Source of the DNA: Escherichia coli
GTDB taxonomy: Bacteria > Pseudomonadota > Gammaproteobacteria > Enterobacterales > Enterobacteriaceae
Length of the DNA: 24,767 nt
Reading direction: 5' to 3' (one strand)
NCBI RefSeq assembly: GCF_003334785.1
Contig: NZ_QOWV01000030.1
This document shows positions 23,459 to 24,767 of the stretch, piece by piece. The notes under the pieces were generated by a model. That model ran no database searches. It was not told where the DNA came from and was given only the letters and a program-made list of their open reading frames with translations. The first letter of the stretch is position 1. The number at the start of each line of letters is the position of its first letter. The position numbers and the translations under genes are program-made.

Positions 23459-24229
23459 ATGTCAACCGGATTACGTTTCACACTGGAAGTGGACGGCCTG
23501 CCGCCGGATGCTTTTGCGGTGGTTTCCTTTCATCTGAACCAGTCACTCTCTTCGCTCTTTTCCCTCGATCTCTCCCTGGTCAGCCAGCAGTTTCTCTCCC
23601 TTGAATTTGCGCAGGTGCTGGACAAAATGGCCTACCTGACGATATGGCAGGGCGATGAAGTACAGCGCCGGGTGAAAGGCGTGGTGACCTGGTTTGAACT
23701 CGGGGAGAACGACAAAAACCAGATGCTGTACAGCATGAAGGTGCACCCGCCGCTGTGGCGTGCCGGTCTGCGCCAGAACTTCCGTATCTTCCAGAACGAG
23801 GACATCAAAAGCATCCTCGGCACGATGTTGCAGGAAAACGGGGTGACCGAATGGAGTCCGCTGTTCAGCGAGCCGCATCCTTCCCGTGAGTTTTGTGTCC
23901 AGTACGGTGAGACTGATTACGATTTCCTGTGCCGGATGGCGGCGGAGGAAGGCATCTTCTTTTATGAGGAGCATGCTTACAAAAGTACCGACCAGAGCCT
24001 GGTGCTGTGCGACACAGTCCGCCATCTGCCCGAATCTTTTGAAATCCCATGGAACCCGAACACCCGTACCGAGGTGAGCACCCTCTGCATCAGCCAGTTC
24101 CGCTACAGCGCACAAATCCGCCCTTCTTCCGTGGTGACCAAAGACTACACCTTTAAACGCCCCGGCTGGGCCGGACGTTTTGAACAGGAAGGCCAGCACC
24201 AGGACTATCCGCTTACAGCTACGCGATGA
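23459..24229 (+). pseudogene. N-terminal fragment (about 256 codons) of a VgrG (T6SS spike, gp27-like domain) gene, truncated by a rearrangement junction
   Basis: Strong RBS (GGAGG, 6 nt spacer) before the ATG at 23459. Translation MSTGLRFTLEVDGLPPDAFAVVSFHLNQ...RPGWAGRFEQEGQHQDYP is a classic VgrG N-terminus. The frame then reads LTATR and stops at 24227-24229, where a full-length VgrG should continue for about 400 more residues. Confidence 0.8.
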
Positions 24230-24767
24230 TGCACTGGTACTCAACGACAACGGCGGGCGGAGCATTCACTTTGAGCCGCTGCTGCCGGGGGAGGCCACCG
24301 CGTGTCGGTCCACTACGGCTATGACGATAAAGGCCGCCTGACCGGCGAACGCCAGACGGTGGAGAACCCGGAGACGGGGGAACTGCTGTGGCACCATGAG
24401 ACCGGACATGCGTACAACGAACAGGGGCTGGCAAACCGCGTCACGCCGGACAGTCTGCCGCCGGTGGAGTGGCTGACCTACGGCAGCGGCTATCTTGCGG
24501 GCATGAAGCTGGGCGGGACGCCGCTGCTGGAGTTCACGCGCGACCGCCTGCACCGTGAGACGGTGCGCAGCTTCGGCAGCATGGCAGGCAGTAATGCCGC
24601 ATATAAACTGACCAGCACATACACCCCCGCAGGCCAGTTACAGAGCCAGCACCTGAACAGCCTGGTGTATGACCGTGACTACGGGTGGAATGACAACGGC
24701 GACCTGGTGCGCATCAGCGGCCCGCGACAGACGCGGGAATACGGCTACAGCGCCACGGGCAGGCTGG
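24216..24767 (+). pseudogene. rhsE: Defective Rhs core (rhsE-type): short Rhs N-terminal segment in frame 3, then Rhs mid-core YD-repeat region in frame 2, running off the window end
   Basis: 24216-24296 in frame 3 reads QLRDDALVLNDNGGRSIHFEPLLPGEA (Rhs core N-terminal region). From about 24293 in frame 2 it reads GHRVSVHYGYDDKGRLTGERQTVENPETGELLWHHETGHAYNEQGLANRVTPDSLPP...YDRDYGWNDNGDLVRISGPRQTREYGYSATGRL (YD-repeat core). The segments are in different frames with stops between them. Confidence 0.8.

What the first reader, a model, noticed from the sequence alone, without database searches (positions are those of the whole stretch)
23459..24767. Scarred VgrG-Rhs composite with at least two junctions, in a genome context without a T6SS
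Three unrelated protein segments are joined within about 90 bp: a VgrG N-terminal gp27-like domain (frame 2, stop at 24227-24229), a 27-codon Rhs core N-terminal piece (frame 3, 24216-24296), and the Rhs mid-core YD-repeat region (frame 2, from about 24293). The second junction sits on a shared GGCC microhomology (gagGCCacc versus gGGCCac). This is the footprint of successive deletions or recombinations between a vgrG gene and an Rhs core, which are normally separate and both associated with type VI secretion. Established knowledge: the K-12 rhsE element is defective, and vgr sequences were first described attached to Rhs elements. Worth asking whether the strongly initiated VgrG fragment (good RBS) is still expressed as a truncated protein, and whether the downstream Rhs C-terminal toxin/immunity pair (outside the window) remains functional.
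Basis: partly seen in the sequence, partly recalled or inferred. Interest (0 to 1): 0.6.

Follow-up and report, generated by a model that had tools for sequence, protein, structure and literature searches.

The report
Deletion-scarred vgrG–rhs pseudogene remnant
This is the wreck of a type VI secretion spike gene (vgrG) and its neighbouring Rhs toxin gene, cut down by two or three small-homology deletions from an intact pair that still exists in sister E. coli strains; it is an ordinary decaying locus, although the cut points are reused surprisingly often in other strains.

Summary
Against an intact sister allele (E. coli NCTC9041; 6 mismatches in 24.2 kb of flank), window 23459-24207 is vgrG nt 1-749. 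Window 24206-24295 is rhs nt 303-392, and 24292 onward is rhs nt 2214 onward, both with no mismatch. Junction 1 removes 1730 bp across a TA overlap. Junction 2 removes 1825 bp across an AGGC overlap.

The window is not K-12. It matches NCTC9087 and JKHS016, and 22 of 5426 complete genomes carry both junctions, so sequencing error is excluded. K-12 MG1655 has no vgrG sequence at this locus.

Possible intermediates exist: vgrG 801 joined to rhs 301, and junction 1 alone. In NCTC9087 the T6SS-1 locus is a remnant and the metV site is empty.

RefSeq already annotates the two pieces as tssI and RHS pseudogenes, and decay of this Rhs locus is published. The finding is therefore correct but ordinary.

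One extra result is unexplained. At least 12 independent deletion alleles exist here, and dozens of truncated VgrG ORFs elsewhere. They reuse nucleotide-precise breakpoints: vgrG codons 130, 219 and 249, rhs nt 303, and a 14-bp palindrome at rhs nt 2187.

The parts
22640..23458 (+). AT-rich non-coding leader between yncH and vgrG. It is retained intact and carries a GGAGG ribosome-binding site at 23449-23453.
   Evidence: Colinear with the intact allele L015. The sequence was read. One weak promoter-like site lies at 23411-23438 (9 of 12 matches), which is no more than the shuffled controls give.
23459..24207 (+). vgrG nt 1-749 (codons 1-249), a partial gp27-like Phage_GPD domain. The rest of the gp27-like domain and the whole gp5-like C-terminal part are missing.
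   Evidence: identical to VgrG of L015 over aa 1-249. TIGR03361 positions 1-240 of 513. PF05954 positions 3-218 of 305.
24206..24207 (+). Junction 1. A TA overlap joins vgrG nt 749 (CAGGACTA) to rhs nt 303-305 (TCCGC). 1730 bp are lost: vgrG nt 750-2109, the 66-bp spacer, and rhs nt 1-302/304. The join is out of frame.
   Evidence: with both parent sequences shown side by side. 23 genomes carry this junction as one piece.
24208..24229 (+). Seven-codon out-of-frame tail (PLTATR plus TGA) that ends the VgrG-fragment ORF inside rhs-derived DNA.
24206..24295 (+). Rhs core nt 303-392 (aa 102-131), in frame 3 from 24207. It has no start codon and is flanked by both junctions.
   Evidence: 90 nt, 100% identical to L015 28936-29025.
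24292..24295 (+). Junction 2. An AGGC overlap joins rhs nt 392 to rhs nt 2214. 1825 bp are lost, shifting the frame from 3 to 2.
   Evidence: 22 genomes carry this junction.
24296..24767 (+). Rhs mid-core YD-repeat region from rhs nt 2218 (aa 739 onward), in frame 2, running off the window end. In the matching strain H3 it continues as one open frame to the toxin tip, followed by an intact ydcD.
   Evidence: NF041261 positions 743-899 of 1261. L001 pseudogene 8994-11003 followed by ydcD 10987-11469.

Best explanation
The region is a dead remnant of the chromosomal vgrG-rhs-ydcD effector island at the yncH-pptA site (Rhs 'locus 6', the RhsE position).

An ancestor carried a complete vgrG and a complete rhs, as NCTC9041 still does. 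A RecA-independent deletion across a 2-nt TA overlap joined vgrG nt 749 to rhs nt 303. This may have gone through an earlier vgrG 801 | rhs 301 join, later trimmed by 54 bp between CTA repeats. A second deletion across a 4-nt AGGC overlap then removed rhs nt 393-2213.

The result has three parts:
- a 256-aa VgrG stub that still has its ribosome-binding site but lacks the rest of the spike;
- a 30-codon rhs fragment with no start codon;
- a promoterless, startless rhs 3' half that still encodes the toxin tip, followed by an intact ydcD.

Shown: the parent sequences, both breakpoints, the overlaps, the frames, and the population frequency. Inferred: that the deletions arose by slippage or end-joining, that they followed (or were tolerated after) loss of the T6SS, and that nothing functional is delivered.
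For: - An intact parent sits at the same locus with 6 mismatches in 24.2 kb of flank and none in segments B and C.
- Both junctions carry short overlaps, and the deleted lengths (1730 and 1825 bp) account for the frame changes.
- Junction 1 without junction 2 exists in strain PI12. Its rhs nt 303 to about 2100 matches the parent haplotype.
- A vgrG 801 | rhs 301 allele exists in two genomes.
- Both junctions are present in 22 of 5426 complete genomes from several hosts and countries.
- RefSeq annotates the pieces as partial tssI and partial RHS pseudogenes.
- The VgrG and RHS_core family matches are truncated.
- At least 10 other independent deletion alleles occur at the same locus, several on the same haplotype. 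These include K-12's.
- The T6SS-1 island is a remnant in the matching strain NCTC9087.
- The literature describes this Rhs position as intact, pseudogene or relic across strains. K-12 rhsE is listed as a pseudogene (PMC2935791 section 9; PMC3032704 Table 6).
Against: - No expression data were available, so a residual role for the 256-aa stub or for internal starts in the rhs 3' half cannot be excluded.
- The order of events is inferred from extant alleles. Both ends of junction 1 are recurrent breakpoints, so alleles that share a breakpoint need not share ancestry.
- T6SS absence was checked at only two chromosomal sites of one matching strain.
Confidence: 0.93

Rival explanations
1. Both junctions arose in one complex event: replication template switching from vgrG 749 to rhs 303, copying 90 nt, then switching to rhs 2214. 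On this view they were not successive deletions.
For: The two junctions lie only 88 nt apart. Both have very short overlaps of 2 and 4 nt. A short templated stretch between two jumps is typical of template-switch products (general knowledge).
Against: Junction 1 exists alone in PI12, with rhs continuing uninterrupted from nt 303 on the parent haplotype up to about nt 2100. A related vgrG 801 | rhs 301 allele also exists. No allele with junction 2 alone was seen: all 22 genomes with junction 2 also have junction 1.
Confidence: 0.08
2. The VgrG stub is kept because it is useful. For example, an expressed 256-aa gp27-like fragment might interfere with incoming or resident T6SS spikes, or drive transcription of the downstream rhs tip and ydcD.
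For: The leader, the GGAGG site and the start codon are untouched. Many independent alleles keep about the first 130-306 codons. The allele is spread over 22 genomes.
Against: - K-12 and its relatives lost the whole fragment with no replacement.
- The same breakpoints are used by in-frame and out-of-frame alleles, which points to mutation rather than protein-level selection.
- Promoter-like matches are no more frequent than in shuffles.
- Retention of 5' parts is partly an artefact of how the searches rank hits.
Confidence: 0.07
3. The rhs 3' half plus ydcD is a functional 'orphan' toxin-immunity cassette. ydcD would be kept for protection, and the cassette would serve as a reservoir that homologous recombination with other rhs cores can re-arm. 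Only the vgrG and 5' rhs debris would be junk.
For: - The rhs 3' part is one open frame to the tip in the matching strain, and ydcD is intact.
- The tip carries RHS and DUF6973 domains, and YdcD matches its own family model.
- Mosaic boundaries in other alleles fall at about rhs nt 2100-2200.
- C-terminal displacement and dissociated tips are described for Rhs (PMC2935791).
Against: There is no start codon or promoter for the rhs fragment. Neither YdcD immunity nor toxicity of the tip was tested here. This reading concerns DNA mostly outside the window, and it does not conflict with the main explanation of the scars.
Confidence: 0.3

Closest known systems
rhsE pseudogene of E. coli K-12 MG1655 (b1456)
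   Same: Same chromosomal locus (yncH ... ydcD-yncO-ISAs1). The rhs 3' half is the same and identical in sequence from rhs nt 2214 onward. It is also a deletion remnant.
   Different: K-12 keeps no vgrG and no rhs nt 303-392. It has a single junction from 68 bp upstream of the vgrG start to rhs nt 2187 (GCTTA|ACCACC). It retains 27 nt of rhs (nt 2187-2213) that the window lacks. It is therefore an independent deletion, not the same allele.
Intact vgrG-rhs-ydcD island at Rhs locus 6 (for example NCTC9041, or E. coli B ATCC 11303)
   Same: Same position and same flanks. NCTC9041 differs from the window by 6 mismatches in 24.2 kb, so it serves as the undeleted parent.
   Different: It has full-length VgrG (702-708 aa) and Rhs (1407 aa). 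The window has lost 3555 bp of this.
Rhs pseudogenes and 'relics' described by Jackson et al. 2009 (PMC2935791)
   Same: That paper describes position 6 (yncG-pptA) as an ancient Rhs locus that is complete, a pseudogene or a relic depending on the strain. Its Figure 3 legend scores each locus for an adjoining vgr gene.
   Different: The paper gives no nucleotide-level breakpoints and does not report reuse of breakpoints.
Microhomology-mediated (RecA-independent) deletion, including palindrome-associated deletion endpoints in E. coli
   Same: The overlaps at the junctions are 0-9 nt. One recurrent endpoint lies at the centre of a 14-bp perfect palindrome, which folds as a hairpin.
   Different: Classical descriptions (from my own knowledge, not retrieved here) do not predict the same vgrG codon being reused with nine or more different partners. 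Most recurrent sites here show no hairpin.

Membership tests
T6SS spike protein VgrG/TssI | Complete gp27-like N-terminal domain (TIGR03361 / Pfam Phage_GPD, full length) | tested here: not met
   Only model positions 1-240 of 513 (TIGR03361) and 3-218 of 305 (PF05954) are present. The intact L015 VgrG covers positions 1-512 of 513.
T6SS spike protein VgrG/TssI | gp5-like OB fold and beta-helix C-terminal part needed to form the trimeric spike | tested here: not met
   vgrG nt 750-2109 are deleted. No such domain was found in the 256-aa ORF.
T6SS spike protein VgrG/TssI | A T6SS core apparatus in the same genome | tested here: inconclusive
   In NCTC9087, which matches the window, the aspV island holds only a tssM C-terminal fragment, vasL and hcp, and the metV site is empty. 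pheU/pheV and other sites were not examined.
RHS element core protein (NF041261) | Continuous core of about 1260 aa with its own start and N-terminal region | tested here: not met
   Only aa 102-131 and aa 739 onward remain, in different frames and without a start codon. The segment C score of 318 bits is far below the 2000-bit cut-off.
RHS element core protein (NF041261) | C-terminal DPxGL-bounded toxin tip followed by a cognate small gene | tested here: met
   This lies outside the window. In strain H3, which is identical to the window over 23300-24767, the frame stays open to the tip and ydcD follows. The tip has PF03527 and DUF6973 domains. YdcD matches NF050020.
Deletion-derived pseudogene of Rhs locus 6 (RhsE position) | Same flanking genes as the intact locus | tested here: met
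   The order ansP-yncG-yncH upstream and ydcD-yncO-ISAs1-pptA downstream is the same in all alleles.
Deletion-derived pseudogene of Rhs locus 6 (RhsE position) | Every retained base is colinear with an intact allele, and the missing DNA is explained by simple deletions | tested here: met
   Three colinear blocks match L015, with 1730 bp and 1825 bp missing between them.

The most novel reading that the evidence does not exclude
The scars are not random. Independent lineages, and paralogous vgrG islands at other chromosomal sites, break at the same nucleotides with many different partners.

- vgrG codon 249 (GGACTA^CC, the left end of the window's junction 1) has at least 9 distinct partners.
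- Codon 219 has at least 6, codon 130 has at least 4, and codons 277 and 306 have 2 each.
- rhs nt 303 (GATA^TCCGC, the right end of junction 1) is used as both a left and a right endpoint.
- The centre of the palindrome GGTGGTT^AACCACC at rhs nt 2187 is the right endpoint in four alleles, including K-12 rhsE.

Both in-frame and out-of-frame products use these sites. This would mean a sequence-directed break-and-rejoin process, not yet identified, that dismantles vgrG-rhs islands. As a by-product it creates in-frame VgrG-toxin fusions.
Probability: 0.3. Interest if true: 0.55.

Novelty: already known. Interest (0 to 1): 0.25.

Why it matters
As stated, the finding documents one more step in the well-known decay of orphan T6SS effector islands in E. 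coli lineages that have lost the apparatus. It also corrects the assumption that this is the K-12 allele.

Its practical value is as a clean, fully mapped allelic series: intact, then junction 1, then junction 1 plus junction 2, alongside the independent K-12 deletion. That series can be used to study how such islands are dismantled.

The only part that could matter more widely is the nucleotide-precise reuse of breakpoints. If it reflects a directed mechanism, it would bear on two questions: how polymorphic-toxin loci are pruned, and how VgrG-effector fusions arise.

Tried and rejected
- **IS-mediated adjacent deletion.** No IS end lies at any junction. The TA-containing sites do not fit the IS5 target (YTAR) or the IS630 target (CTAG) (target sequences from my own knowledge).
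- **In-vivo restriction at GAT^ATC (EcoRV-like) and GTT^AAC (HpaI-like).** This fits the L004, K-12 and window junctions if the cuts are blunt. It fails for L002, whose right part starts TATCC. It also offers nothing for vgrG codon 249.
- **Hairpins at breakpoints.** Only the rhs 2187 palindrome folds notably (-9.7 kcal/mol, z -1.7). The other sites have z between -1.0 and +1.0.
- **ATCCGC motif.** 4 of the 7 plus-strand copies in the 6.5-kb island lie within 5 nt downstream of recurrent breakpoints (up-68, vgrG 657, vgrG 920, rhs 304). It is absent at vgrG 749 and at rhs 2187. The motif is not significantly enriched in the locus (30 observed against 22 expected).
- **Dcm site.** A CCAGG lies 5 nt upstream of vgrG 749, but none was seen in the sequence read around the other recurrent breakpoints.
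- **Clustering of vgrG breakpoints between nt 676 and 819 in the first survey.** This is partly an artefact of ranking hits by query coverage. Only exact reuse of a breakpoint is treated as meaningful.
- **Promoter scan.** It gave nothing above the shuffled controls.
- **Loss of the Python machine.** After that, breakpoint statistics were done by eye from the sequences. No formal test was run.
- **Original Rhs/vgr papers by Hill and co-workers.** Two searches that could have returned them did not. Statements about them rest on my own knowledge.

Full report
**What is in the window.**
The region lies downstream of ansP, yncG and yncH. The ORF at 23459-24229 encodes 256 aa and is preceded by GGAGG at 23449-23453. 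It matches the VgrG/TssI models only over their first half: TIGR03361 positions 1-240 of 513 (E 4e-66) and Pfam Phage_GPD positions 3-218 of 305. The frame-2 translation from 24293 matches the RHS core model at positions 743-899 of 1261.

**Which strain it is.**
The whole 24.8-kb window matches E. coli NCTC9087 and JKHS016 end to end at about 100%. K-12 derivatives cover only 39% of 23300-24767. In K-12 MG1655 the sequence GTCGACTCGCTTA|ACCACCCTCAGCC sits at the start of the annotated rhsE pseudogene. So K-12 goes from 68 bp upstream of where vgrG would start directly to rhs nt 2187, and has no vgrG DNA at all. The window is a different, independent allele of the same locus.

**The parent allele and the exact breakpoints.**
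NCTC9041 (L015) has a complete vgrG (2109 nt, 702 aa), a 66-bp spacer and a complete rhs (4224 nt, 1407 aa) at the same place. It differs from the window by 6 mismatches over the 24.2 kb that include vgrG nt 1-749. It has no mismatch in the two rhs-derived blocks.

Mapped onto it:
- Window up to 24207 is vgrG nt 1-749.
- Window 24206-24295 is rhs nt 303-392 (aa 102-131).
- Window 24292 onward is rhs nt 2214 onward (aa 739 onward).

Junction 1 reads CAGGAC-TA-TCCGC. The parents read CAGGACTA|CCAGCGC and CTGATA|TCCGC. The overlap is 2 nt, and 1730 bp are lost (remainder 2 when divided by 3).

Junction 2 reads GGGGG-AGGC-CACCGCG. The parents read GGGGGAGGC|GGTGTAC and GTGAAGGC|CACCGCG. The overlap is 4 nt, and 1825 bp are lost (remainder 1 when divided by 3).

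The two losses sum to a multiple of three, so vgrG and the rhs 3' half share frame 2. However, the 88-nt middle piece carries TGA stops at 24227 and 24272 in that frame.

**Is it an artefact?**
No. Junction 1 occurs as a single piece in 23 complete genomes and junction 2 in 22. The full 1468-nt query is contiguous at 99.9-100% in 22 genomes from humans, pigs, lettuce and wastewater in several countries. RefSeq annotates the pieces as 'tssI, incomplete, missing C-terminus' and 'RHS repeat-associated core domain protein, incomplete, missing N-terminus'.

**Order of events.**
Strain PI12 (L006) has junction 1 but not junction 2. Its rhs runs on from nt 303 and stays on the parent haplotype to about nt 2100, after which a different 3' core and tip have been recombined in. 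Two genomes (L002 type) have vgrG nt 801 joined to rhs nt 301 (GGGTGCC|TATCCGC). This differs from junction 1 by a 54-bp stretch flanked by CTA repeats. No genome with junction 2 alone was seen.

The simplest history is as follows. An optional vgrG 801 | rhs 301 join comes first. A 54-bp trim then gives junction 1, and junction 2 follows. Both ends of junction 1 are recurrent breakpoints (see below), so a direct one-step origin of junction 1 cannot be excluded.

**Genome context.**
In NCTC9087 the aspV-associated T6SS-1 island is reduced to a tssM (IcmF) C-terminal fragment, a VasL-domain gene, hcp and a few small genes. It abuts another rhs pseudogene and an ISAs1 copy. The metV site, where T6SS-2 sits in other strains (my own knowledge), runs directly from amiC through three tRNA-Met genes to mltA.

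Downstream of the window, strain H3 is identical to the window over 23300-24767. There the rhs 3' half is one open frame to the tip, and ydcD, yncO and ISAs1 copies follow. The tip carries PF03527 (RHS protein) and DUF6973 domains. YdcD matches its own NCBIfam family.

**How it most likely works.**
It does not work as a T6SS effector locus. The VgrG stub lacks part of the gp27-like domain and the whole C-terminal spike. The rhs 5' end, with its start codon and N-terminal region, is gone. The rhs 3' half has no start of its own.

The stub could still be translated, since its leader, ribosome-binding site and start codon are intact, but no expression data were available. The promoter scan gave nothing above shuffled controls. 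The tip-plus-ydcD cassette may persist for immunity, or as recombination material. This fits the C-terminal displacement model for Rhs (PMC2935791), but it remains an inference.

**What is already known.**
Jackson et al. 2009 list position 6 (yncG-pptA) as one of the oldest E. coli Rhs loci. They score it as complete, pseudogene or relic in different strains. The E. coli W genome paper lists rhsE as a pseudogene in K-12 and intact in B. Large surveys describe frequent T6SS fragmentation in E. coli (PMC12282107; PMC10711316, title and abstract only). The finding is thus a correct description of a known kind of object that public records already flag as pseudogenes.

**An unexplained extra: reused breakpoints at the DNA level.**
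The locus carries many other deletion alleles. In E. coli B numbering they are:
- vgrG 938 | rhs 2187 (L007)
- vgrG 1263 | rhs 1592 (L008)
- vgrG 770 | rhs 2187 (L009)
- vgrG 769 | rhs 1447 (L010), an in-frame 1174-aa ORF
- vgrG 715 | rhs 1654 (L011)
- vgrG 729 | rhs 1108 (L012)
- vgrG 676 | rhs 1784 (L013)
- rhs 304 | rhs 2187 (L004)
- upstream -68 | rhs 2187 (K-12)

Several of these sit on the same haplotype as the window, with at most 3 mismatches in 1.5 kb.

Four alleles (K-12, L004, L007, L009) share a right endpoint at the centre of a perfect 14-bp palindrome, GGTGGTT^AACCACC. They have four different left partners. Rhs nt 303 (GATA^TCCGC) is the right endpoint of the window, PI12 and L002 alleles, and the left endpoint of L004.

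**Reused breakpoints in the protein survey.**
A protein search with the 256-aa stub returned dozens of truncated or fused VgrG ORFs.
- After ...GQHQDY (codon 249, the window's breakpoint) the sequence continues in at least eight other ways: RITGVSH, NPADQDSS, ITPDPIGL, HLFYEYD, ITQDPIGL, PDGLESRR, EVLNDRTTT, or a stop in L009.
- After ...FRYSAQ (codon 219) it continues in at least six ways.
- After ...QENGV (codon 130) it continues in at least four ways.

One of the codon-249 alleles lies at the yncH locus. Another lies at the paralogous cusS-linked vgrG island. Their DNA junctions show overlaps that differ from the TA of junction 1: about 1-2 nt in L019 and 9 nt in L021. By rough count, about half of some 30 alleles that break between codons 219 and 343 fall on two codons.

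In-frame and out-of-frame products use the same sites, which argues for a mutational rather than a selective cause.

**Candidate causes tested.**
I tested IS targets, restriction-like cuts, hairpins, an ATCCGC motif and a Dcm site (details under tried and rejected). None explains all the sites.

Three caveats apply. Clustering at 90% identity hides out-of-frame variants. Ranking by coverage favours breakpoints at or after codon 219. The script machine was lost, so no formal statistics were run.

**Verdict.**
Novelty is low, because this is an already annotated and already described kind of relic. Breakpoint reuse is the only feature that might merit follow-up.

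Noticed in passing
L015 30813-30826 (rhs nt 2180-2193); K-12 L022 1893-1923; L004 about 14638; L007 about 4579; L009 about 4412: A perfect 14-bp palindrome, GGTGGTTAACCACC, lies inside the rhs core. 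Its centre is the shared right breakpoint of four different deletion alleles, including the K-12 rhsE pseudogene. The window's junction 2 lies 27 nt downstream of it.
   Followed up: partly
window 24200-24207 (vgrG codons 247-249); also vgrG codons 130 (window about 23846) and 219 (window about 24113): Nucleotide-precise vgrG breakpoints are reused by many independent truncation and fusion alleles, at this locus and at the cusS-linked paralogous vgrG island. Codon 249 has at least 9 different partners. The cause is unknown.
   Followed up: partly
L010 3660-7184; L019 4001-5275; proteins P0014, P0020, P0002, P0018, P0030: In-frame VgrG(1-249)-Rhs fusions are annotated as intact tssI genes. Some join the VgrG stub directly to the DPxGL-bounded Rhs toxin tip (for example a 424-aa ORF at the yncH locus). 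They may be accidental deletion products or usable spike-toxin fusions.
   Followed up: partly
L016 9752-17032 (NCTC9087, aspV region): The T6SS-1 island is reduced to a tssM C-terminal fragment, vasL and hcp. It abuts an oppositely oriented, N-terminally truncated and frameshifted rhs core and an ISAs1 copy. This is a second deletion or rearrangement scar joining T6SS and Rhs DNA in the same genome.
   Followed up: no
L015 32841-33324: In NCTC9041, the strain with intact vgrG and rhs, the putative immunity gene ydcD is annotated as frameshifted. This is either a homopolymer error in that assembly or an odd combination of intact toxin and broken immunity.
   Followed up: no
L006 about 8840-8940 (rhs nt about 2100-2200) and L005 versus the window at 24292-24767: Allelic mosaic boundary in the rhs core. 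The 5' 2.1 kb is nearly identical between haplotypes, while the 3' core is 3-13% divergent. The switch falls in the same about 100-bp region as the palindrome hot spot and junction 2.
   Followed up: partly
proteins P0008-P0010, P0017 (ENA contigs): VgrG residues 1-331 are fused to a C-terminal domain hit by Pfam PF16325, which by eye resembles the C-terminal end of RlhA (U32 peptidase family; my own reading, not tested). rlhA lies about 20 kb upstream in the window. This suggests a larger rearrangement or an assembly chimera.
   Followed up: no
window 1-352 (equals L015 3001-3352): The window starts inside insQ, a TnpB-type RNA-guided nuclease gene of an IS200/IS605 element whose tnpA is a pseudogene. 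hicAB and ortT toxin genes also lie in the window. No link to the finding was found.
   Followed up: no
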